A stretch of DNA of 64,000 nt from an uncultured Bacillota bacterium (GTDB lineage: Bacteria > Bacillota_I > Bacilli_A > RF39 > UBA660). The translations under genes were made by a program, and so were the position numbers. Below are positions 5,940-51,150 of the stretch, piece after piece. The stretch covers positions 3,732 through 67,731 of the forward strand of contig CAMVLZ010000004.1 in NCBI GenBank assembly GCA_947168485.1. Reading direction: 5' to 3'. The notes beneath the pieces were generated by a model. It was not told the DNA's origin. It saw only the letters and a program-made list of their open reading frames with translations, and ran no database searches. Position 1 is the stretch's first letter. The number at the start of each line of letters is the position of its first letter.

Positions 5940-6016
5940 TGGCGCCCCAACTAGGACTTGAACCTAGGACCCCTTGATTAACAGTCAAGTGCTCTAACCA
6001 GCTGAGCTATTGAGGC
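5940..6016 (-). tRNA. tRNA-Asn (anticodon GTT), CCA encoded
   Basis: Reverse complement GCCTCAATAGCTCAGCTGGTTAGAGCACTTGACTGTTAATCAAGGGGTCCTAGGTTCAAGTCCTAGTTGGGGCGCCA folds as a cloverleaf: 7-bp acceptor stem, anticodon stem CTTGA/TCAAG, loop CTGTTAA, T-loop GGTTCAAGTCC. Confidence 0.93.
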
Positions 6017-16152: not shown

Positions 16153-16529
16153 GGGGATGACTAGGTTTCGACGGGAATATTAGAGCATAGATCGCAAGTC
16201 GGAGGAACACGTCACGAACACAAGCAATAAATGCTAACAAAGTTAAAACTGCATTTGCAAACATGTTTGGTGGAAGCCAAGCATATGCAATGGCCTAATT
16301 AATATAAAGGCATGCACTCTACCTATTATTACCTAAGTAATAGAATAGGGTTCGTTTTATTAGGTTATAGCTATTATTTGTCTAGATAATAGAAAGAATT
16401 TTTAGACTGGTATAACTATTTGGTCGTTAACTACTTGATAGTTATATGAGATTAATTAGTTAACTAAACTTGTAGAAGTTTATGTAGCTAGATTTTCGGA
16501 CAGGAGTTCGATTCTCCTCATCTCCACCA
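16153..16529 (+). ncRNA. ssrA: tmRNA (transfer-messenger RNA)
   Basis: 5' GGGGATGACTAGGTTTCGACGGG and 3' GGACAGGAGTTCGATTCTCCTCATCTCCACCA form the tRNA-Ala-like domain. Internal tag frame GCT AAC AAA ... GCA ATG GCC TAA (16233-16298) predicts ANKVKTAFANMFGGSQAYAMA. Confidence 0.93.
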
Positions 16530-42817: not shown

Positions 42818-43417
42818 TCACCCCGCAATATTTTTTTTCGAACACTTCAATATGAAGAATCCTTTTTCTTTCTTTAAAACATCTACATCGTACTTTAAAC
42901 TTAAATCTCTAATAACAGACTTAGCTCCTTGCTGCTTCCTAATTACTAAAAATAGTTTCCCATTATCTTCCAAGTAATCGTTCGCATTCATTAACATATC
43001 ATATACTACAGATTTACCAGCTCTAATTGGTGGATTAGTAATAATACTAGAATATTTATCAGTAACATTAGAATAAACATTACTTTCAAATACATTAATA
43101 TTATGACATTTATTAAGATCACTATTCATTTTAGCCAAATGAACAGCTCTTAAATTAACATCAACTAAATCACAAGAACAATCATGAACTTTGTTTAAAA
43201 CAATACCAATGACACCATAACCACATCCCAAATCAAGAATTTTGCCTCCAACTTCGTCAAGCGGAATGCTCTCAAGAAGAAGTCTACTGCCAAAATCCAA
43301 ACCGTACTTAGAAAAAACGCCATTGTCTGTATTAAAAGTGAATTTTTGTCCTCTTACAAAACAACTAGTCTTTTTAATATTACTTACTAACTTTTCATTA
43401 GTAAAATATTGTCCCAT
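42818..43417 (-). CDS. class I SAM-dependent methyltransferase (RsmC/YbxB-like small-domain MTase)
   Basis: [12 protein letters not shown] (SAM motif I) and [11 protein letters not shown] (NPPxxxG). Same position as Bacillus ybxB upstream of rpoB. Start at ATG 43417 (MGQYFTNE) behind AGAGGGGA. Confidence 0.8.
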
Positions 43418-43430
43418 TAAATCCCCTCTT

Positions 43431-43479
43431 TTAAACAAAAAGAAGGAGAAAACTATCATAATAAAGTCTAGTTTTCTCC
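43431..43479 (-). promoter_or_regulatory. terminator-like hairpin (possible attenuator) in the 5' leader of methyltransferase-rpoB-rpoC
   Basis: Reverse strand GGAGAAAACTA-13 nt loop-TAGTTTTCTCC followed by TTCTTTTTGTTT, between the promoter and the RBS. Confidence 0.5.
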
Positions 43480-43494
43480 CTTTCAAACACATAT

Positions 43495-43521
43495 ATTATA
43501 CCACATATTTATATTTGTCAA
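43495..43521 (-). promoter_or_regulatory. extended -10 promoter for methyltransferase-rpoB-rpoC
   Basis: Reverse strand TTGACA, 15 nt spacer ending in TGG, TATAAT. The spacer is short but the TGnTATAAT is perfect. Confidence 0.45.
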
Positions 43522-43541
43522 CAATTTTTTTACTTTTTTTG

Positions 43542-43575
43542 TAAAAAAAAACAGAACGGTAATCGGTCCGCCTGT
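43542..43575 (-). terminator. intrinsic terminator of the orphan ncRNA
   Basis: Reverse strand ACAGGCGG-ACCGATTA-CCGTTCTGT (GC-containing stem) followed by nine T. Confidence 0.65.
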
Positions 43576-43953
43576 AAAAAAACATCATACTAGGAATAAA
43601 TATTAAATCATTTAACCAAAAACGTAGCATTTTTTCTCGGAGTCCACGTAAGATTAGCTAAATCTTAACCCTCCCGAGTTTTACGGATTACAACACTTAG
43701 TAATCGCATGAGTCCTCTCTCATAATTCAAATATTCTTAGAATCGTACGTCTCTCTTCTATTAGACATTGTTTGCTAACAGAACGCAATGATCATTGACT
43801 GACTACCGATATACTCGTCATTAAGCACCAGGCATGCTACCTTATATATAAAATATAAGCTAATAGGCGCCAAATCGAGACACCAAGAATATTCTACTAA
43901 ATTGTACAAAGATAAGATCAATCAAGTAAACTCAATCTCTCTTTATCTTATAC
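43543..43953 (-). ncRNA. orphan structured RNA of about 400 nt, class unknown
   Basis: Lies between its own promoter (43958-43985) and terminator (43542-43575). No ORF longer than about 13 codons. Locally GC-enriched, for example 25 G+C in the 60 nt at 43621-43680 against a very AT-rich background. Many short hairpins: GCUUAUAUA/UAUAUAAG, CAUUG...CAAUG, AUGAG/CUCAU, GAUUAC/GUAAUC, CUCGG...CCGAG enclosing UAAGAUU/AAUCUUA. Confidence 0.55.
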
Positions 43954-43957
43954 ATTG

Positions 43958-43985
43958 ATTATAGCACACTAAATTATAAAGTCAA
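43958..43985 (-). promoter_or_regulatory. extended -10 promoter of the orphan ncRNA
   Basis: Reverse strand TTGACT, 16 nt spacer ending in TGC, TATAAT. Confidence 0.55.
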
Positions 43986-43989
43986 TAAC

Positions 43990-44025
43990 CTAAAATAAAA
44001 AAGTTGTCTATAATAAGACAACTTT
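43990..44025 (-). terminator. intrinsic terminator of the T7SS-like module
   Basis: Reverse strand AAAGTTGTCT-TATTAT-AGACAACTTT followed by TTTATTTT. The stem contains the last codons and stop of the esaB-like gene. Confidence 0.6.
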
Positions 44026-44256
44026 ACACCCATTCTTTAAACCAGATAATCTAACTAGGTTATTATTGTTGATAACATTACCATCTATATTGATTAAATA
44101 AGCATTATCATGCTTTACATAATTATTACTTGACATCTCTATTAAAGTATTTTGAATCATATCAAGTACATCTACTACCTTTACATTAATAGGTAATAAT
44201 AGATCATATGATTCATCTAAAGATAAAACATAAATTGTAACAAGTATATTAGTCAT
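44008..44256 (-). CDS. esaB: EsaB/YukD-like ubiquitin-fold protein of type VIIb secretion systems
   Basis: 82 aa with an SYDLLLPINVKVVDVLDMI core and a C-terminal LSGLKNGCKVVLL. This is the same pattern as S. aureus EsaB and B. subtilis YukD. Located 8 nt downstream of essC. Confidence 0.75.
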   Translation of the reverse strand: MTNILVTIYVLSLDESYDLLLPINVKVVDVLDMIQNTLIEMSSNNYVKHDNAYLINIDGNVINNNNLVRLSGLKNGCKVVLL

Positions 44257-44264
44257 ATAACCTC

Positions 44265-47200
44265 CTATATAGTTGGGAACCTAATAAATAAAGGTTCAGA
44301 ATCAACAACATTAACGACCATTTCGTTACTTGGATTAACTGGATTATCAGAATAAGATATAGATTGCATATCAAGAGCTGATTGAGAATCATAATCTACA
44401 CCAATCCAAATACCATTTGAATTATCTATTAAATTAGAAATATTAGAATTCAATAATTTAGAATAAGACTCCTCTTTTTCAAATAATACAAATTTAAAAT
44501 TATTATTAGAACAATCTAGTATTAAATCATCTAATGTATGAATAGAATCATCCTTAGCTTTAGCTTTAGTTAAATAATTATTAATAGCACTATAACCTAA
44601 TACTAAAATAACAAAAGACTTTTCAGAAGGATTTTCATTTAGTTTTAGACAATTATCATAAAGTAAATTATTTACTTTCTCAAAATCAGATTCATATATC
44701 TTTGCTTTCTCATCTAATTTATAATTAATACCCTTCTTACCATTAAGTATAATTAAATTAGTATTTTCACAACTACAAATAATCTTACTAAAGTAACTAA
44801 CAAATTTACCAATATTAGCAACTTCTGCTGCGGCTAATAATGATATTTTCTTATTAAAGTCAAAATATTGTTGTTGAGCAGTAACTAAGTTTACACCTAA
44901 AGGAATATTATTTAATGTATTAGCCTTAGATGTATAAGATTCAATAGATAATTTCCTTGGTACATCAGGTACTTCAGGAGCTTTTATTGGATTAGATTTA
45001 TCTAATTCAGTAAATAATGAATCTAAATATTCTTTCTTAGAAGATTCTTCACAAATTAGTGCAGTCTGATACTCAACAGGTACACCTTCATTTAATATAA
45101 CTCCACGTCCAGGATTTCCTGCAGGAGCTTTTCCTCCTTTAAATATATATGAATAAGTTGATTCATCACTTAATTGTAATAAAACATATTGTTTAAAACT
45201 ATTATCTACACTTGATGGAACTCCATCAGGGGAAGAAACAGCAATAACAAATTCAATACCAAATTTAGAACAATTTCTAAGTATAGGAACAAATAAATCA
45301 TCAAATAATTCATCAAAGTTTTCTTTGAAGACTTCAAATCCATACATATAAACAATTATATTAGGAAAAGCACAATTTCCAGTACTAACATCAGTTTGAT
45401 AATCTCCACCATGTTCAGAATAATATTTCTTTCTCTTATTCAATTCAGTTTCAATCATATAGAAGAAATAACTAATCTTATTTTTATCATCAATACTTAG
45501 AACATCACCTATATGAGGAGCTTTTTTATAATTAATAAATTGTACAGTTCCAAAATCTAAAATATAAATGTTTAACTCATCACTAGTATGTCTAATTATT
45601 GAAGAAAATATCATAGTTGAGAACAAAGTAGCTTTACCAGAACCAGGATTACCCATAATTACAGTATTACCAGCACCAGTAAGCGATAATCTAACAAAAC
45701 CTTGACGTTGATTTTCAGGATCATCATATTCACCAATTAATGGATTAATAACATATTTACTCTCAGGAATATTAGTATATTTATTTAATAAATTTCCATA
45801 GAATAATCTCTTAGGAACATTATCTAACCATAATTGATGATTTTTATATCCTTGAACTTCAGCAACATCAACTATATATTTCATTACATTTGTTAATTCT
45901 TCTCCTAAATCTTGAGAAACTTGAACATTATTATCTTTTTTAACAACATTTCTATAAGTATCACCAGTATCATCAATAAAGTATATAGAATCATCAGTAT
46001 TTGTAGTAACCATTTCAGATGGAACATAAGGAATACCAGAATATCCTGATTGTCCTAAAACATAATATTCATCATATCCAACTTGTAAATAAAATCTACC
46101 AGCTTCTTTAATATAAGCAGCATCAGGTTTTCTTAACATTTCATTACTATCATCTGCTGTTTGTACTTTACAACAAACTTTAAATTTAGCATTTGACCAA
46201 ATTTGATCATCTACAACACCACTAGGTTTTTGTGTAGCAAGAATCAAGTGAATACCTAAAGATCTACCAATACGAGCAGCAGATACTAACTCATCCATAA
46301 AATCAGGTTGTTGAGCTTTTAACTCAGCGAACTCATCACAAATTATAAATAAATGAGACATAGGCTCATCTAAAGAACCATCCCTTACATACATTTGATA
46401 TTTATAAATATCGATAGACCCTGTATTTAATTTTTCTTTAGCAGCATTAAATGCTTTTTGTCTTCTTTGCAACTCACTCTTAATTGAAACTAAAGTACGA
46501 TTCATTTCAGCTTTATCTAAGTTAGTAATAGTACCAACCAAATGAGGTAATTTAATACCAGTCTTTCTATTTTCAAAAGCACCAGCTAAACCTCCACCTT
46601 TATAATCAATAAGAACAAATTGTACTTCATCAGGACTATAATTAATAGCTAAAGATAAAATATAACTAACAATAAACTCAGATTTACCAGAACCAGTCAT
46701 ACCAGCAATCAAACCATGTGGACCATGTTTCTTTTCATGCAAATCTAAATTTAAAATATTACCATTCGCATCAATACCAATAGGAGTAGCTAAAGTACTA
46801 GATATAGGAGCAGTCTTCCATCTCTCAACTATATTTAATTGCTCTATCTTACCTACACCAAACATCTCTAAGAAACCAAACTTACTTGGTAAAGAAGCAT
46901 TTGAAGTATCATCAGGTTCAACCTTAACAGGTATATTTGCTAATCTTTCAACATCTCTATAAAAGTTAACTGTTGTATCAATCTTGTTAGGTTTAAACTT
47001 AACAATATTTTTCTCATCCATTTCAGAATTAAAGAAAGTACATTCATTATCAGAATAATTAATAAAGTAATTACAACCAGTAGGTATATTATTAACCTTA
47101 TTAGTAAATAACAATAAACTAATAAACATAGTTTCTTGATCAGTTGCACTACGTAAAACATAATCAATAATTTTTAAACTCTTATAATACTCAATACAAT

Positions 47201-48851
47201 CTGAAATAATAACATAATAAGTATCAATACCCTTTTTATTATCAGAACTATTAACTTTATTAATAATTTTCATTAACTCATTAGAAACAGATTCAGCTTC
47301 ATTTAAGTTAGTAGCAAAAAATCTAAAAGTTCTACTATTATTCCAACAATGATTTAAATTCTTAATATGATTTAAATTAGAATTTGGATTAGTCAAAACA
47401 ACAAATTTCAAACTTCCATAATCATGTAAACAAGATAATTGCAATAAAATAGAATTTAAATAATTAGAATAATTACCAGTAGCATCAATAACAGCTAAAC
47501 TCTTATTCTTAAGTGAAAAAGTAAATGAAGAATCATCAATAAATTCATATTTTTTTATTAATGCATCAATATCATCATATAACTTATCATTTTGTACTAT
47601 AAAATCAGGTTTAGAATATTCAACTTCTATAGAAGACTTTACTCTACCAGATCCACATAAGAACCTTAAAAATGAATCAGATTCAATATTTCTAGAAAAT
47701 AGATTTGCATTCTTACTTACAATAGCATCTTCACAATCATTTAATGATATATTATTAAATTTTAAAACATTCTTTTCTTCAACAATTACCGCTTCAAACT
47801 CTTTATCTTTTCGTTTTAAATATCTTTTATAATTAAAGACCCTCATACGATTATTAAAGAATCTTTTTAATTTAGCAGCATAATGTTCTATTATAGGCCA
47901 CAAGATACTTGTAACTAATAAAATAGCAAACATAACAATTCCAGTTATTAATGACTCTTTATTAGAAGCTATAGTATCAGCAGAAGCCCCAGCAGTATTT
48001 CTCTTATAACTAGCAAATGAAAAGTATAAAGTAACAAATGATGATAATCCCATCAAAGCAGAAGGAACAATTTGAGATAATATATTAGAATCAGTATTTT
48101 TTTCTTTTGCATCAGGTGGTGTAATAACTGCTTTATAAGTATCATATTTTTTCTTAAATATCGGAGACTTATAAAAATAATCATACATTGTATATAACTC
48201 TTTAGCAGACTCTGTTATAGGATTATCCGCTACAACTAATTCAAATTTAGTATTTACTAAAATATCACCAGTTCTAATATTTTCAATTGGTCCAACAATA
48301 AATATTTTATTACCAACAAAAGTAAGTTTAACTCCCATTAAAAACACACTATCAAAACTAGAAAGTATAACATTCTCTTCTCTCTTCTTATTTACATATA
48401 TAGGAACTTTATTATCTAAATTAGATAAATTCCAAACACCGTTATTAAAATCTAATTTAATTTGTTTATCAGAGATTCTAGGATTATTGTAAACCAAATT
48501 ACAATCATTACCTTTACCAACAATTATACTAGAACCATTAGCAACCTCTTTCATTAAAGGTTTATCAATAAAACCAGGAAATACATATAAAATAATATAC
48601 TCACTATTATGATAATTCAAAGTATAAAATTCATAAGGAATAACTTCAACTTTATCTAAATAAGATCCATTATACATAATAGAAACATCACTATTAGAAT
48701 TAAAGTACCACTTATCATCCTCAGAAGATATATTAATTAAACTTCTTGATTTATTATCTACGTCTAAATCACTTAACATATAACTACCAGAAAAATTCTT
48801 AGGTAATCTAAACGTGTTAATATTATTTAAATGAATGATATATATTAACAT
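44265..48851 (-). CDS. essC: EssC/YukB-like FtsK-SpoIIIE-family T7SS ATPase
   Basis: 1528 aa. N-terminal FHA-like repeats (IIVGKGNDCNLVYNNPRISDKQIKL), two TMs, ATPase 1 with LIAGMTGSGKSEF and FIICDEFAELK, ATPase 2 with VIMGNPGSGKATL, and a degenerate third domain. Confidence 0.9.
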   Translation of the reverse strand: MLIYIIHLNNINTFRLPKNFSGSYMLSDLDVDNKSRSLINISSEDDKWYFNSNSDVSIMYNGSYLDKVEVIPYEFYTLNYHNSEYIILYVFPGFIDKPLMKEVANGSSIIVGKGNDCNLVYNNPRISDKQIKLDFNNGVWNLSNLDNKVPIYVNKKREENVILSSFDSVFLMGVKLTFVGNKIFIVGPIENIRTGDILVNTKFELVVADNPITESAKELYTMYDYFYKSPIFKKKYDTYKAVITPPDAKEKNTDSNILSQIVPSALMGLSSFVTLYFSFASYKRNTAGASADTIASNKESLITGIVMFAILLVTSILWPIIEHYAAKLKRFFNNRMRVFNYKRYLKRKDKEFEAVIVEEKNVLKFNNISLNDCEDAIVSKNANLFSRNIESDSFLRFLCGSGRVKSSIEVEYSKPDFIVQNDKLYDDIDALIKKYEFIDDSSFTFSLKNKSLAVIDATGNYSNYLNSILLQLSCLHDYGSLKFVVLTNPNSNLNHIKNLNHCWNNSRTFRFFATNLNEAESVSNELMKIINKVNSSDNKKGIDTYYVIISDCIEYYKSLKIIDYVLRSATDQETMFISLLLFTNKVNNIPTGCNYFINYSDNECTFFNSEMDEKNIVKFKPNKIDTTVNFYRDVERLANIPVKVEPDDTSNASLPSKFGFLEMFGVGKIEQLNIVERWKTAPISSTLATPIGIDANGNILNLDLHEKKHGPHGLIAGMTGSGKSEFIVSYILSLAINYSPDEVQFVLIDYKGGGLAGAFENRKTGIKLPHLVGTITNLDKAEMNRTLVSIKSELQRRQKAFNAAKEKLNTGSIDIYKYQMYVRDGSLDEPMSHLFIICDEFAELKAQQPDFMDELVSAARIGRSLGIHLILATQKPSGVVDDQIWSNAKFKVCCKVQTADDSNEMLRKPDAAYIKEAGRFYLQVGYDEYYVLGQSGYSGIPYVPSEMVTTNTDDSIYFIDDTGDTYRNVVKKDNNVQVSQDLGEELTNVMKYIVDVAEVQGYKNHQLWLDNVPKRLFYGNLLNKYTNIPESKYVINPLIGEYDDPENQRQGFVRLSLTGAGNTVIMGNPGSGKATLFSTMIFSSIIRHTSDELNIYILDFGTVQFINYKKAPHIGDVLSIDDKNKISYFFYMIETELNKRKKYYSEHGGDYQTDVSTGNCAFPNIIVYMYGFEVFKENFDELFDDLFVPILRNCSKFGIEFVIAVSSPDGVPSSVDNSFKQYVLLQLSDESTYSYIFKGGKAPAGNPGRGVILNEGVPVEYQTALICEESSKKEYLDSLFTELDKSNPIKAPEVPDVPRKLSIESYTSKANTLNNIPLGVNLVTAQQQYFDFNKKISLLAAAEVANIGKFVSYFSKIICSCENTNLIILNGKKGINYKLDEKAKIYESDFEKVNNLLYDNCLKLNENPSEKSFVILVLGYSAINNYLTKAKAKDDSIHTLDDLILDCSNNNFKFVLFEKEESYSKLLNSNISNLIDNSNGIWIGVDYDSQSALDMQSISYSDNPVNPSNEMVVNVVDSEPLFIRFPTI

Positions 48852-48882
48852 ATCTCCAACTCCTTATTCTCTCTATTATATT

Positions 48883-48891
48883 TATTATATC
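48883..48891 (-). promoter_or_regulatory. possible internal extended -10 promoter for essC
   Basis: Reverse strand TGATATAAT, about 30 nt upstream of the essC RBS. No good -35. Confidence 0.3.
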
Positions 48892-48905
48892 ACTATATTT
48901 TTCTA

Positions 48906-48936
48906 TATAAAAGAAAAAAGATGATATTCATCATCT
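48906..48936 (-). terminator. weak intrinsic terminator or attenuator between small T7SS genes and essC
   Basis: Reverse strand AAGATGAT-GAAT-ATCATCTT followed by TTTTCTTTT, 3 nt after the stop of the acidic protein gene. Confidence 0.4.
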
Positions 48937-48939
48937 TAA

Positions 48940-49275
48940 TTATTCAAACATATTATTTAAATTATCCAACTCATCTGAAGTAATAGAATCAGCAGGATTT
49001 TGCACTTCAGGTTCAGGCATACCAGCCTCAGTATCTGAAACTGCAGTATAATCTACCTCTTCTTCATCAGAATCGTCATATAATTCTTCGTCTTCATCAT
49101 CTTCTTCAGTACCATCAACTAAATCTTCTTCATCATCTGCTTCAGTTAACACATCTGCTTCTTCTTCAGTAGGAGTATCAACATCATGATTAAGTCTAGC
49201 AGCGATTTGTTTAATTTCTTCTGGCATTGAATCAGTTATAACAATATGTCCATCTTGGTCTAAATTAGCAGGCAA
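48940..49275 (-). CDS. small highly acidic (D/E-rich) protein of the T7SS-like module
   Basis: TTG start 6 nt after AGGAGGTG, which overlaps the stop of the WXG gene. Short N-terminal ordered-looking segment, then a long D/E tract (TEEEADVLTEADDEEDLVDGTEEDDEDEELYDDSDEEE). Confidence 0.65.
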   Translation of the reverse strand: MPANLDQDGHIVITDSMPEEIKQIAARLNHDVDTPTEEEADVLTEADDEEDLVDGTEEDDEDEELYDDSDEEEVDYTAVSDTEAGMPEPEVQNPADSITSDELDNLNNMFE

Positions 49276-49287
49276 CTAAAACACCTC

Positions 49288-49596
49288 CTATTTTCCAAAA
49301 TATCCTTTTTGACTTAATGTTATATATCTATTATATAACTTATTCCAAGCTTGGCATGCTTCATTGTATGCTTTAATGTTATTATCCATATTACTCTTTG
49401 CACTATTAAAGTATCTTAATGCTTGAGGTCCGTTCCAATATGGATCTTCTCCATCACCTTTCATTAGTGAATTAAGAGTAGTATTTAAACCTTTTAAAGC
49501 TTGATAAATATTTTCAATTTCTTTATTTACATTATCACATAACTTAACATATTCATCATTGCTTAATTTTTTCTTTTTATTTTGTGTATTTGCCAT
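49288..49596 (-). CDS. WXG100-family (EsxA-like) small secreted protein
   Basis: 102 aa with two predicted helices and a central YWNGPQA (W-x-G) turn. Located next to essC. Confidence 0.7.
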   Translation of the reverse strand: MANTQNKKKKLSNDEYVKLCDNVNKEIENIYQALKGLNTTLNSLMKGDGEDPYWNGPQALRYFNSAKSNMDNNIKAYNEACQAWNKLYNRYITLSQKGYFGK

Positions 49597-49625
49597 ACAT
49601 TTCTCTCCTCTCTTATTTTATAAAA

Positions 49626-49991
49626 CTATAAATTTTTAAGTATTATATCCATATCTTCTGCATTTTGATATTCTTTTTTACATTGTTCTTTTCTAGAAGA
49701 TGCAGCTGATACTCTACCTTTAGCAGCTTTTTTAGCTTCAGTTAATTCATTTTTAACTTTTGTAGTAGCTAATCCTTTACTATTTAAAGCCTTTTTAAAA
49801 TAAGCCTCTAATCTTTCATTAGCTTTAGCTATTTGATCATAATAACCATTTGCTTTATAAATTTTTCCTAAAAGATCCTTTGCATTATCATGAATAACTA
49901 AATGATTTTTTACAACTGTACTAGGTACAGTAACTGCTAACTTTGCTGCTTGAGCTGTAGAATGTACTAATGTTCTTTTTGGTGTAGCCAT
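49626..49991 (-). CDS. small basic helical protein, first gene of the T7SS-like module
   Basis: ORF 49626..50009. Start placed at ATG 49991 (MATPKR), 8 nt after AAGGAG. Lys/Ala-rich helical sequence with no WXG. Confidence 0.6.
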   Translation of the reverse strand: MATPKRTLVHSTAQAAKLAVTVPSTVVKNHLVIHDNAKDLLGKIYKANGYYDQIAKANERLEAYFKKALNSKGLATTKVKNELTEAKKAAKGRVSAASSRKEQCKKEYQNAEDMDIILKNL

Positions 49992-50022
49992 TTTCATATC
50001 TCCTTTCATATCTTATATAAAA

Positions 50023-50051
50023 AATATAACTCATCTATTAAAATTAGTCAA
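50023..50051 (-). promoter_or_regulatory. sigma-A-type promoter of the T7SS-like module
   Basis: Reverse strand TTGACT, 17 nt spacer, TATATT, directly downstream of the rplL terminator. Confidence 0.55.
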
Positions 50052-50084
50052 CTAACTAGACTAAATTGAATGTAATAAAATGTA

Positions 50085-50117
50085 AAATAAAAAAAGAAGT
50101 TAAAATTATTTAACTTC
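50085..50117 (-). terminator. intrinsic terminator after rplL
   Basis: Reverse strand GAAGTTAAA-TAAT-TTTAACTTC followed by TTTTTTTATTTT. The stem includes the rplL stop. Confidence 0.6.
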
Positions 50118-51006: not shown

Positions 51007-51150
51007 AAAACACCTCCTTGTACGAATACCAATAAAAAATCCTTGAGATATGCCCAAGGATCCTAAAAACTTAAAGTTAAGTCCTCGGTAGGATTTACAT
51101 ACCTACTGTCTTTGGCACTCATAAACTGCAATTATTATAACATATTATTA
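51007..51150 (-). promoter_or_regulatory. rplJ (L10) leader with attenuator hairpin
   Basis: The 144-nt rplA-rplJ spacer is GC-enriched. It contains GTAGG...CCTAC and ATCCTTGGGCATATCTCAAGGAT followed by TTTTTATT, consistent with the L10(L12)4-responsive leader known in Bacillota. Confidence 0.5.

What the first reader, a model, noticed from the sequence alone, without database searches (positions are those of the whole stretch)
43543..43985. Orphan promoter-to-terminator unit encoding a structured RNA of about 400 nt with no recognisable class
Seen in sequence:
- On the minus strand, an extended -10 promoter (TTGACT-16 nt ending TGC-TATAAT, 43958-43985).
- About 400 nt downstream, a GC-containing hairpin plus nine T (43542-43575).
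- The interval has no ORF above about 13 codons.
- It is clearly GC-enriched relative to its surroundings, for example 25 G+C in the 60 nt at 43621-43680.
- It is packed with short complementary segments: GCUUAUAUA/UAUAUAAG, CAUUG/CAAUG, AUGAG/CUCAU, GAUUAC/GUAAUC, and a nested CUCGG..UAAGAUU/AAUCUUA..CCGAG.
- It has three purine-rich GAGAGA tracts.

What I tested by eye:
- The size fits RNase P RNA, but the universal GGAAAGUCC and ACAGAA P4 strands are absent in the right strand and order.
- No SRP helix-8 GGAA/AGCAGC motif.
- No T-box motif.

Inference: it lies immediately downstream of the T7SS-like cassette and just upstream of the rpoBC promoter. It could be cargo of the same insertion, or an unrecognised housekeeping or regulatory RNA.
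Basis: partly seen in the sequence, partly recalled or inferred. Interest (0 to 1): 0.7.

Follow-up and report, generated by a model that had tools for sequence, protein, structure and literature searches.

The report
New structured RNA beside secretion genes
This is a real, separately transcribed RNA gene of about 405 bases from a previously undescribed family in uncultured gut and rumen bacteria; it sits at the end of a small secretion-system gene cluster, and its sequence suggests that copies of the RNA pair with each other.

Summary
A near-consensus extended -10 promoter (43958-43985) and an intrinsic terminator (43543-43574) bracket about 405 nt on the minus strand.

- **Known families:** none of 4227 Rfam models matches it or its homologues.
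- **Family:** homologues occur in about 23 distinct sequences from RF39-like "Bacilli/Tenericutes" MAGs.
- **Structure:** the 5' core is 95.7% paired on a plain MAFFT alignment, against 30-55% in slid controls, and 17 of 30 pairs change on both sides. The 3' domain is 80% paired.
- **Fold:** a long-range helix P1 closes a multi-branch junction. A conserved internal loop is complementary to the terminator loop.
- **Palindromes:** two apical elements are self-complementary. P4 is a perfect 10-14 nt palindrome in most lineages, with six different self-complementary central tetramers.
- **Natural heterodimer test:** one genome carries two tandem copies. Neither P4 is self-complementary, but the two are exact reverse complements. 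This points to RNA-RNA pairing between molecules.
- **Context:** the RNA lies at the 3' end of an EssC-YukD-WXG100-like cassette whatever gene follows (Fisher p = 1.8e-5).
- **Literature:** I found no prior description.

Shown: a new structured RNA family linked to this cassette. Inferred: oligomerisation. Unknown: function.

The parts
44000..44025 (-). Terminator-like hairpin that ends the cassette mRNA. It overlaps the YukD-like stop codon and separates the RNA gene from the cassette transcript.
   Evidence: 10-pair stem followed by a T run
43958..43985 (-). RNA gene promoter: -35 TTGACT (43980-43985), 16-nt spacer, extended -10 TGCTATAAT (43958-43966).
   Evidence: 11 of 12, TG present. Equivalent TTGAC-N17-TATAAT promoters sit in front of every family member read.
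43543..43953 (-). The RNA itself, about 405 nt. The 5' end is inferred about 5-7 nt after the -10; the 3' end lies in the U tract.
   Evidence: family profile and CM matches 43543-43968
43909..43949 (-). P0: 5'-terminal hairpin (AAGAUAAAG...CUUAUCUU). A 5' AUAAGAU motif is shared by many members.
43894..43901 (-). Nearly invariant single-stranded UAGUAG at the foot of P1. Together with the conserved GAA after the P1 3' strand it resembles a loop-E/sarcin-ricin module (inference from known RNA motifs).
   Evidence: A5 G6 T7 A8 invariant or nearly so
43883..43894 (-). P1 5' strand (GAAUAUUCUUGG) of the long-range helix that closes the multi-branch core.
   Evidence: helix 1: 98% paired; 6-10 of 12 pairs change on both sides
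43729..43740 (-). P1 3' strand (CUAAGAAUAUUU).
43877..43881 (-). P1b 5' strand GUCUC. It pairs with GAGAC at 43749-43753; the family consensus is GUUUC/GAAAC, so the window carries a compensatory change.
43749..43753 (-). P1b 3' strand GAGAC.
43831..43871 (-). P2: variable hairpin inside the junction.
43801..43819 (-). P3 hairpin. Its loop (AUCGGU here, UUAAUCA in the consensus) is complementary to the terminator loop.
   Evidence: window AUCGGU/ACCGAU, 6 bp
43786..43797 (-). P4: perfect 12-nt palindrome CAAUGAUCAUUG. Proposed site of intermolecular RNA-RNA duplex formation.
43758..43781 (-). P5: variable hairpin inside the junction.
43708..43723 (-). P6 hairpin AUGAG-AGAGGA-CUCAU with a conserved purine-rich ARNGRA loop.
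   Evidence: helix 5: 97% paired; 3 of 5 pairs covary
43686..43705 (-). P7: optional hairpin GAUUAC...GUAAUC, absent in several members.
43636..43678 (-). P8: two-tier stem CUCGGG../..CUCCGAG and UAAGAUU/AAUCUUA, preceded by the conserved AAAC. The apical palindrome UUAGCUAA lies at 43654-43661.
43577..43635 (-). P9 domain: AAAAAAUG (43628-43635) pairs with UGUUUUUU (43577-43584), enclosing a variable hairpin with the AAAUGAUU motif.
43543..43574 (-). Intrinsic terminator hairpin (43552-43574), its loop ACCGAUUA (ACCGAU at 43562-43567), and nine U (43543-43551).
44008..44256 (-). YukD/EsaB-like ubiquitin-fold protein, 82 aa; last gene of the cassette.
   Evidence: PF08817, E = 0.0054, below the cut-off; 141 homologues
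44265..48851 (-). EssC-like ATPase, 1528 aa, with an FHA domain and FtsK/SpoIIIE domains.
48940..50009 (-). Three small cassette proteins: 127 aa basic and helical (49626-50009), 102 aa with a W-x-G motif (49288-49596), 111 aa extremely acidic (48940-49275).

Best explanation
The interval is a stand-alone gene for a structured non-coding RNA of about 405 nt. It belongs to a previously undescribed family found in RF39-like, low-GC Bacilli of gut and rumen.

**Shown**
- It has its own sigma-70-type promoter and an intrinsic terminator.
- It has a conserved architecture supported by covariation. This comprises a 5' hairpin P0 and a 12-bp long-range helix P1, extended by P1b, which closes a junction holding hairpins P2 to P5. 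Then come hairpin P6, a two-tier stem P8, a P9 domain and the terminator hairpin.
- It is genetically coupled to a minimal type VII-like secretion cassette: three small proteins including a WXG100-like one, an FHA-FtsK/SpoIIIE EssC-like ATPase, and YukD. The RNA always lies at the 3' end of this cassette, on the same strand, whatever gene follows.

**Inferred from sequence**
- The loop of P3 pairs with the terminator loop.
- P4, and probably the P8 apical loop, are self-complementary so that two or more RNA molecules can base-pair with each other into dimers or larger assemblies.

**Proposed mechanism (inference)**
The folded, oligomeric RNA acts as a stable scaffold or ribonucleoprotein partner of the cassette's proteins. 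It does not act as a cis-regulator of neighbouring genes.

My sub-confidences are: a real structured RNA family, 0.95; intermolecular pairing, about 0.65-0.7; a function tied to the cassette, about 0.45.
For: **Transcription unit**
- Promoter and terminator are confirmed.
- A separate terminator ends the cassette mRNA at 44000-44025.
- The downstream methyltransferase has its own conserved promoter and leader, which are present even in genomes without the RNA.

**Not a known family**
- Rfam 15 gives nothing in the window, nor in 21 homologous or related loci.
- There is no blastn hit in plasmid or phage collections and no viral contig hit.
- Five literature searches found no description.

**Family**
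- Iterative nhmmer and two covariance models recover it in 37 loci, about 23 distinct sequences of 394-520 nt.

**Structure**
- 5' core, plain MAFFT alignment: 95.7% of cells paired against 30-55% when partners are slid; 17 of 30 pairs change on both sides; 0 of 500 shuffles reach the observed score.
- 5' core, CM alignment of 20 sequences: 95.5% paired; 23 of 30 pairs change on both sides.
- 3' domain: 80% paired against 39-60%; 19 of 31 pairs change on both sides.
- Independent single-sequence MFE folds give the same P1 junction and P6 in nearly all of 18 members.

**Intermolecular pairing**
- P4 is a perfect 10-14 nt palindrome in most lineages. Its central tetramers are GCGC, GAUC, UGCA, ACGU, GUAC and GGCC, all self-complementary.
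- The P6 loop of the same RNAs holds no palindrome longer than a chance 4-mer.
- L058 carries two tandem copies. Their P4 elements, CAUUGCGCAUUG and CAAUGCGCAAUG, each have an internal mismatch but are exact reverse complements of each other.
- The P8 apical loop holds a 6-8 nt palindrome in 18 of 18 representatives, in at least six different sequences.
- The P3 loop and the terminator loop share at least 5 contiguous Watson-Crick pairs in 14 of 18, against 7.8% with shuffled loops. Lineage-specific compensations occur: window AUCGGU/ACCGAU, L092 UUGAUA/UAUCAA.

**Linkage to the cassette**
- Context table.
- Among methyltransferase loci, the RNA is present in 5 of 5 with the cassette and in 1 of 30 without it. 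Fisher p = 1.8e-5.
- The gene downstream is the methyltransferase-rpoB operon, a Na/Pi cotransporter, thymidylate kinase or others.
Against: - There is no expression data, so the transcript ends are inferred.
- All members come from metagenome assemblies of one lineage, and many sequences are related. Counts of covarying cells therefore overstate the number of independent events.
- The CM alignments are fitted to the structure, although the MAFFT-only control agrees.
- Each P8 palindrome is unremarkable on its own (shuffle p about 0.1-0.7), and it is absent in L114 and L105.
- The P3-terminator loop pairing mostly reflects a conserved consensus. A permutation across sequences gives p = 0.068.
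- Two lineages have imperfect P4 palindromes: L004 and L105.
- The cassette link is not absolute. L004 has the RNA without a cassette within 4 kb. L067, L070 and L073 have a cassette abutting the methyltransferase promoter with no RNA.
- Nothing tested here shows a physical or functional interaction with any cassette protein.
Confidence: 0.55

Rival explanations
1. It is a genuine structured RNA, but its function has nothing to do with the secretion cassette. On this view it is a stable RNA of another role, for example a protein sponge, a stress RNA or a ribozyme. It would share an island or an insertion hot spot with the cassette and be inherited with it.
For: - L004 keeps the RNA next to the methyltransferase with no cassette within 4 kb.
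- Some cassettes lack the RNA.
- The RNA has its own promoter and terminator, and the cassette mRNA is terminated before it.
- The rplL-methyltransferase spacer is an insertion hot spot carrying unrelated inserts in L001 and L004.
Against: - The RNA keeps the same position and strand at the 3' end of the cassette in about 19 YukD lineages with at least four different downstream neighbours.
- A second, different structured RNA-like unit occupies the same position in a distant cassette clade. This argues that a 3' RNA is part of the cassette design.
Confidence: 0.27
2. The palindromes act at the DNA level. They would be a binding or recombination site for a dimeric protein, possibly linked to the FtsK-like ATPase, and the surrounding conservation would be secondary.
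For: P4 and the P8 loop are perfect DNA palindromes. FtsK-family proteins are known to act at palindromic dif-type sites (established knowledge, not tested here).
Against: - The palindrome sequence changes freely while its symmetry is kept: 13 or more different P4 sequences with six different centres. That is the signature of base pairing, not of protein recognition.
- The two L058 copies break the symmetry of each site but keep complementarity between the copies.
- Helices far from the palindromes covary strongly.
- No recombinase gene lies in the cassette.
Confidence: 0.03
3. It is a cis-regulatory leader or riboswitch whose terminator controls read-through into the downstream operon.
For: It ends in a terminator directly upstream of the methyltransferase-rpoBC operon in the window and in several relatives.
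Against: - Downstream genes differ between members: methyltransferase-rpoB, Na/Pi cotransporter, thymidylate kinase, or genes on the opposite strand.
- The methyltransferase has its own promoter and leader hairpin, conserved in genomes that lack the RNA.
- The terminator hairpin and its loop are constitutively conserved, with no evident alternative anti-terminator.
- No riboswitch or T-box model matches.
Confidence: 0.03
4. It is a decayed pseudogene, a small-protein gene, or a diverged copy of a known housekeeping RNA such as RNase P, 6S, SRP or tmRNA.
For: There are ORFs of 44 and 48 codons in the window, and the size is similar to RNase P RNA.
Against: - No ORF is conserved in frame or position. 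The longest sense ORFs are 19-53 codons, and similarities appear in several frames and on both strands, only between close relatives.
- Pfam finds nothing in the two window ORFs.
- Changes are compensatory in helices.
- No Rfam model matches, including RNase P, 6S and SRP. tmRNA is elsewhere in the window.
- The RNA is absent from most related genomes at the syntenic site.
Confidence: 0.02

Closest known systems
Large ornate bacterial RNAs that form RNA-only homo-oligomers (ROOL, GOLLD, OLE; also raiA and ARRPOF)
   Same: It is a stand-alone bacterial non-coding RNA of several hundred nucleotides with many conserved helices, unknown biochemical function and an origin in gut or rumen Bacillota. 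Sequence features, namely self-complementary loops and loop-loop complementarity, predict intermolecular contacts. Those RNAs assemble through kissing loops and related contacts (PMC12286853, PMC12990946).
   Different: There is no sequence or covariance-model similarity to any of them. It is shorter (about 400-520 nt). It is not next to tRNAs or in phage regions, unlike what is reported for ROOL and GOLLD, but at the end of a secretion cassette. Oligomerisation here is only inferred.
Palindrome-mediated RNA dimerisation (HYER1/HYER5 group II-derived ribozymes; HIV-1 dimerisation initiation site)
   Same: A short, perfectly self-complementary apical element is kept palindromic while its sequence varies. 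In the HYERs, those with the palindrome dimerise and those without it stay monomeric (PMC12990946). The HIV-1 DIS uses a 6-nt palindromic loop (established knowledge).
   Different: The RNA class and context are unrelated. Here the whole 10-14 nt element is palindromic, which suggests an extended duplex rather than only a kissing loop. A natural two-copy heterodimer variant exists in L058.
phi29 prohead RNA (pRNA)
   Same: pRNA is a structured RNA that multimerises through complementary loops of neighbouring molecules. It forms the interface to a ring ATPase of the ASCE/FtsK-HerA kind (PMC5066667, PMC2241910, PMC6765105). Here an RNA with two complementary loops (P3 and terminator) and palindromic elements is encoded next to an FtsK/SpoIIIE-family ATPase.
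   Different: pRNA is about 174 nt, phage-encoded and part of a DNA-packaging motor. This RNA is chromosomal with no phage or viral match, is more than twice as long, does not match the Rfam pRNA model, and has no demonstrated contact with the ATPase. This is an analogy of mechanism only.
Type VIIb and variant T7SS gene clusters (T7SSb to T7SSj)
   Same: The neighbouring cassette has the three near-universal components: an FtsK-related EssC-type ATPase with an FHA domain, a YukD/EsaB-like ubiquitin-fold protein, and a small WXG100-like protein (PMC11217815).
   Different: No structured RNA is mentioned in the matched passages of the T7SS variant survey I searched. The cassette here shows no EssA-, EssB- or EsaA-like membrane genes.

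Membership tests
Any Rfam 15 family (including RNase P A/B, 6S, SRP, tmRNA, OLE, ROOL, GOLLD, raiA, HEARO, pRNA, T-box, riboswitches) | Match to the family covariance model at or above its gathering score | tested here: not met
   There is no match in 43400-44100 even at E up to 10; the only hits are three sub-threshold matches at or beyond the 3' end. No match over the RNA in the whole window, in 13 homologous loci, or in 8 more loci.
Bacterial RNase P RNA | Universal P4 strands (GGAAAGUCC ... ACAGAA) and presence in every genome | tested here: not met
   The motifs are absent from the sequence. There is no RNase P model hit. The RNA is absent from the syntenic site in most relatives.
Independent sRNA/ncRNA gene | Own promoter and own intrinsic terminator, conserved across homologues | tested here: met
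   for the window. Promoters and terminators were read directly in L047, L054, L057-L060, L062, L063, L004, L008, L105 and L114. Terminator helix 87% paired with 5 of 9 pairs covarying.
Structured RNA family (evolutionarily conserved secondary structure) | Compensatory base changes that maintain helices beyond controls | tested here: met
   (unfitted alignment).
Cis-regulatory leader or riboswitch | Constant association with, and transcription into, a particular downstream gene class | tested here: not met
   At least four different downstream neighbours. A separate promoter drives the methyltransferase operon.
Homo-oligomeric ornate RNAs (the kind, not a homologous family) | Conserved elements able to pair between identical molecules | tested here: met
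   P4 perfect palindromes with six self-complementary centres. The L058 copies are complementary to each other.
Homo-oligomeric ornate RNAs (the kind, not a homologous family) | Demonstrated multimer (native gel, SEC, cryo-EM) | not testable with these tools
   Needs an experiment.
phi29-type pRNA | Encoded by a phage next to packaging genes; about 170 nt; matches the pRNA model | tested here: not met
   No phage or viral match, no Rfam match, and a length of about 405 nt.
phi29-type pRNA | Two loops whose complementarity covaries and links neighbouring molecules | tested here: inconclusive
   P3 loop and terminator loop are complementary in 14 of 18, with three lineage-specific compensations, but the permutation p is 0.068. 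Intra- and intermolecular pairing cannot be told apart.
Type VII secretion cassette (context) | EssC/EccC-type FtsK/SpoIIIE ATPase | tested here: met
   PF01580, E = 4.7e-46, two stretches, plus FHA.
Type VII secretion cassette (context) | YukD/EsaB ubiquitin-like protein and a WXG100 protein | tested here: inconclusive
   YukD scores 17.9 bits, below the 27-bit cut-off. The 102-aa protein has a W-x-G motif (YWNG) but no Pfam hit.
Type VIIb secretion system specifically | EssA, EssB and EsaA membrane components in the locus | tested here: not met
   Only three small soluble-looking proteins, EssC and YukD lie between rplL and the RNA. The rest of the genome was not examined.

The most novel reading that the evidence does not exclude
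The RNA is an integral subunit of a reduced type VII-like translocation machine. It would dock or organise the hexameric FtsK-family EssC ATPase, much as phi29 pRNA docks the packaging ATPase. In doing so it would stand in for the missing EssA, EssB and EsaA proteins. Alternatively, the RNA might itself be handled by the ATPase. The existence of a second, unrelated-looking structured RNA at the same position in a distant cassette clade would then mean that an RNA partner is a general feature of these cassettes.
Probability: 0.15. Interest if true: 0.95.

Novelty: categorically new. Interest (0 to 1): 0.8.

Why it matters
If it holds, this is a new class of large structured bacterial RNA found in RF39-type bacteria, which are common in human and animal guts. 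As far as I could find, it is also the first structured RNA genetically coupled to a type VII-like secretion ATPase.

It adds a candidate to the very short list of natural RNAs that assemble with themselves. It comes with a rare natural control: a genome with two copies whose pairing elements have co-evolved to match each other rather than themselves. That makes the oligomerisation idea directly testable with in-vitro transcripts and compensatory mutants.

It also raises a concrete question: does a minimal T7SS-like cassette lacking the usual membrane partners use an RNA instead?

Tried and rejected
- **Exact and degenerate DNA patterns in the species-representative genome collection.** The 43-mer of P8 found nothing, so the window's genome is not a representative. 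A 22-mer degenerate pattern found only the L047 contig plus four chance hits inside coding regions of Caldisericia, Clostridiales and Flavobacteriales.
- **Single-sequence nhmmer against the 41 methyltransferase loci.** It found nothing. Homologues appeared only after anchoring on the cassette proteins and iterating profiles.
- **The search for related loci with a 48-sequence YukD alignment.** The 20-sequence version found only one locus in genome contigs but 26 in metagenomes.
- **RNAalifold on the full-length MAFFT alignment.** It recovered only 16 pairs because variable insertions spoil the alignment. I therefore defined helices from concordant single-sequence folds and tested them by column counts.
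- **Near-identical contigs.** Five Logan/ENA contigs are 100% identical to the window and gave no variation.
- **Plasmid, phage and viral collections.** No match.
- **CMs R1 and R2 on distant cassettes.** They did not detect the family in L064-L079, L067, L070, L073, L096 or L104. Reading those regions showed either no RNA (L067, L073) or a different RNA-like unit (L096 group).
- **Explanations considered and rejected.** RNase P, 6S, SRP, riboswitch or T-box, pseudogene, small ORF, transposon guide RNA (only L004 has a neighbouring transposase, on the other strand), and a DNA-level palindromic site. Reasons are given under the rival explanations.
Full report
**1. What is in the window**

Read on the minus strand, the region runs in this order:
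- rplJ, rplL;
- three small ORFs of 127, 102 and 111 aa;
- a 1528-aa FHA-FtsK/SpoIIIE EssC-like ATPase (44265-48851);
- an 82-aa YukD-like protein (44008-44256), with a terminator-like hairpin over its stop codon (44000-44025);
- the candidate unit;
- a second promoter (43493-43521) and a leader hairpin;
- an MTS-family methyltransferase, rpoB and rpoC.

The promoter of the candidate unit is TTGACT-16-TGcTATAAT at 43958-43985. It scores 11 of 12 and is the best site in 1.5 kb. The terminator is 43552-43574 followed by nine U. GC rises to 0.35-0.365 inside the unit, against 0.21-0.30 outside.

ORFs of 48 and 44 codons exist. They have no Pfam match and are not conserved.

The single-sequence fold is only marginally better than shuffles (z = -1.97; antisense -1.59). 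The window alone therefore does not prove structure.

**2. It is not a known RNA**

Rfam 15 (4227 models) finds tmRNA, a tRNA and the L10 leader elsewhere in the window, but nothing here at gathering score. At E up to 10 there is nothing inside the RNA body. Thirteen homologous loci and eight further loci give no match either.

blastn against plasmid and phage collections finds nothing. A specific terminator-loop pattern finds nothing in viral contigs. Full-text searches combining T7SS, YukD or EssC with non-coding RNA, RF39 with structured RNA, and ornate RNAs with secretion systems returned no description of such an RNA.

**3. Finding relatives**

The organism is an RF39-like low-GC "Bacilli/Tenericutes" MAG lineage, judging from the record titles of the methyltransferase loci.

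The closest species representative, L001, has a methyltransferase 89% identical. It has neither the cassette nor the RNA. A different 433-aa ORF sits between rplL and the methyltransferase.

Anchoring on EssC found L047, with EssC 59% identical. There YukD is again followed by a promoter, about 470 nt without a conserved ORF, and a terminator. Patchy homology to the window is visible, along with a compensatory change: GUCUC/GAGAC against GUUUC/GAAAC.

The YukD-like family has 141 members. Metagenome loci and encoding contigs for 13 YukD variants, iterated nhmmer profiles and two covariance models recover the RNA in 37 loci. That is about 23 distinct sequences of 394-520 nt.

**4. Structure**

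Independent MFE folds of 18 representatives give the same plan in nearly all:
- an unpaired, nearly invariant UAGUAG;
- an 11-12 bp helix P1 closing a junction, extended by P1b (GUUUC/GAAAC);
- inside the junction, a variable hairpin P2, hairpin P3 with loop UUAAUCA, the palindromic P4 and a variable P5;
- after P1, a conserved GAA, then hairpin P6 (GUGAG-ARNGRA-CUCAC) and an optional P7;
- a conserved AAAC and a two-tier stem P8;
- GAGAAAAAUG opening a P9 domain;
- the terminator hairpin with conserved loop UGAUUA.

The pairing counts are as follows.

| Alignment | Cells paired | Slid controls | Pairs changing on both sides | Shuffles reaching observed score |
|---|---|---|---|---|
| 5' core, plain MAFFT, 10 sequences | 95.7% | 30-55% | 17 of 30 | 0 of 500 |
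| 5' core, CM alignment, 20 sequences | 95.5% | 29-51% | 23 of 30 | 0 of 500 |
| 3' domain, 21 distinct sequences | 80% | 39-60% | 19 of 31 | 0 of 500 |

In the CM alignment of the 5' core, P1 is 98.7% paired and 10 of its 12 pairs covary. Examples read directly from the sequences:
- P1 is AAUAUUCUUGG/CUAAGAAUAUU in L054.
- P1 is AAUAUAUCUGG/CUAGAUAUAUU in L057.
- P1 is GUAUUUAUUAC/GUAAUAAAUAU in L012.

The sequences are related and two of the alignments are model-fitted, so cell counts overstate independent events. The agreement of the unfitted alignment and the slid controls nevertheless makes the conclusion safe.

**5. Signs of pairing between molecules**

P4 is not just a hairpin. The whole element, including the four central bases that could not pair within one hairpin, is a perfect palindrome of 10-14 nt in most lineages. 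The sequence differs between lineages:
- CAAUGAUCAUUG (window, L055);
- CAAUGCGCAUUG;
- UAAUGCGCAUUA;
- UAUUGCGCAAUA;
- GGUGCGCACC;
- CGGUGCGCACCG;
- AUGUGCACAU;
- CAAGUGCACUUG;
- CGAUACGUAUCG;
- CGAUGUACAUCG;
- CAAAUGCAUUUG;
- CUAUAUGCAUAUAG;
- AAUGGCCAUU.

The central tetramers are GCGC, GAUC, UGCA, ACGU, GUAC and GGCC, all self-complementary. A random tetramer is self-complementary one time in sixteen. The loop of P6 in the same RNAs holds no palindrome longer than a chance 4-mer.

The most telling case is L058, which has two tandem copies, each with its own promoter and terminator. Its P4 elements are CAUUGCGCAUUG and CAAUGCGCAAUG. As a hairpin or self-duplex, each has a U-U or A-A mismatch. 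Yet they are exact reverse complements of each other. This is what an intermolecular duplex predicts once a genome has two copies.

The apical loop of P8 carries a 6-8 nt palindrome in all 18 representatives: UAGCUA, GCUAGC, ACUAGU, UGCAUGCA, UAGCGCUA or CUAGCUAG. Each one alone is unremarkable, and L114 and L105 lack it.

The P3 loop and the terminator loop are complementary over at least 5 contiguous Watson-Crick pairs in 14 of 18, against 7.8% with shuffled loops. Lineage-specific compensations occur: window AUCGGU/ACCGAU, L092 UUGAUA/UAUCAA, L058a UUAAUCAG/CUGAUUAA. Because most members share the consensus, a permutation across sequences gives only p = 0.068. Whether this contact is within one molecule or between molecules cannot be decided here.

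Precedents exist for such contacts:
- ROOL, GOLLD and OLE homo-oligomers (PMC12286853).
- The HYER ribozymes, where those with a palindrome dimerise and those without it do not (PMC12990946).
- phi29 pRNA, which multimerises through complementary loops (PMC2241910, PMC5066667).

**6. Genomic association**

In every locus the RNA is on the same strand as the EssC-YukD cassette and at its 3' end. It lies directly after YukD, or after one to three further small ORFs, or in the L105 group just before YukD. The next gene varies:
- methyltransferase-rpoB (window, L088, L100-103, L114, L119, L008, L012, L017, L027, L035);
- a Na/Pi cotransporter (L057, L060, L063, L080-86, L092-95);
- thymidylate kinase (L054/L109);
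- other genes (L047, L059, L062).

Among the methyltransferase-anchored species representatives, all 5 with the cassette have the RNA. Of about 30 without the cassette, only L004 has it, and there a transposase lies between rplL and the RNA. Fisher p = 1.8e-5.

There are exceptions in the other direction too. L067, L070 and L073 have cassettes that run up to the methyltransferase promoter with no RNA.

A distant cassette clade (L096-99, L104, L069, L077) ends instead with a different promoter-to-terminator unit of about 285 nt. It is about 90% conserved, has an MFE z-score of -5.4 and a few compensatory changes, has no Rfam match, and is not matched by my models.

**7. What it most likely is and does**

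Shown: an independent gene for a conserved, highly structured RNA of a family not in Rfam and not found in the literature searched, linked to a minimal T7SS-like cassette.

Inferred with moderate confidence: the RNA pairs with other copies of itself through P4, and perhaps through P8 and the P3-terminator loops.

Inferred with lower confidence: it works together with the cassette proteins as a scaffold or ribonucleoprotein partner. The cassette has an EssC-type ATPase, a YukD-like protein and a W-x-G protein, but none of the usual T7SSb membrane partners in the locus (component sets in PMC11217815). It therefore has room for an unconventional component.

The main rival is that the RNA merely shares an island with the cassette. 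Cis-regulation, coding, pseudogene, known housekeeping RNA and DNA-level explanations are each contradicted by specific results (see the rival explanations).

**8. Verdict**

I rate it as a categorically new RNA class in the sense that it matches no known family or known gene association. The general kind, a large self-associating bacterial RNA, does have recent precedents. Function remains unproven, and the oligomerisation prediction is directly testable.

Noticed in passing
L096:4521-4804, L104:4533-4811, L069:3643-3920, L077:5025-5302: A second, different promoter-to-terminator unit of about 285 nt sits at the 3' end of a distant clade of EssC/YukD cassettes. It is about 90% conserved, has an MFE z-score of -5.4 and a few compensatory changes, and matches neither Rfam nor my two covariance models. 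It may be a second cassette-linked RNA family or a very diverged relative.
   Followed up: partly
L058:3803-4263 and L058:4290-4747: Two tandem copies of the RNA lie in one genome, each with its own promoter and terminator. Their P4 elements are complementary to each other rather than to themselves.
   Followed up: yes
window 43436-43521 (minus strand): A promoter (TTGACA-17-TAATAT) and a hairpin leader (GGGAGAAAACUAGAC...GUUUUCUCC) lie directly upstream of the methyltransferase-rpoBC operon. They are conserved, with compensatory changes, in L001, L004, L067, L073 and L114, whether or not the RNA is present. Rfam gives only sub-threshold matches. This may be an undescribed leader or attenuator of the rpoBC operon in this lineage.
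   Followed up: no
window 43417-50105; L001:2523-4000; L004:1745-4000: The spacer between rplL and the methyltransferase-rpoB operon is an insertion hot spot in this lineage. In most species it is 150-250 nt. It holds a 433-aa ORF in L001, a transposase in L004, and the T7SS-like cassette in the window, L008, L012, L017 and L027.
   Followed up: partly
window 48940-50009 (minus strand): The cassette's small proteins are a 127-aa basic helical protein, a 102-aa protein with a W-x-G motif (YWNG) but no Pfam hit, and a 111-aa protein that is extremely acidic (long D/E runs). No EssA-, EssB- or EsaA-like membrane protein genes are in the cassette.
   Followed up: partly
L004:1871-3268 (minus strand): A 465-aa transposase-like ORF lies between rplL and the RNA, in the only locus where the RNA occurs without the cassette. 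This suggests cassette loss or rearrangement mediated by an insertion sequence.
   Followed up: no
window 43894-43901 and 43725-43728 (minus strand): The nearly invariant AGUA before P1 and GAA after P1 face each other at the foot of the helix. They resemble a loop-E/sarcin-ricin module, a common protein-binding or tertiary-contact motif. This was recalled from knowledge and not tested.
   Followed up: no
window 42818-43492 (minus strand): The mechanical 224-aa ORF for the methyltransferase starts at an ATG inside the leader hairpin. Homologues start at MGQYF (43417), giving 199 aa.
   Followed up: yes
window 16153-16529 (+), 5943-6016 (-), 51025-51133 (-): tmRNA, a tRNA and the ribosomal protein L10 leader are the only Rfam matches in the window.
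   Followed up: no
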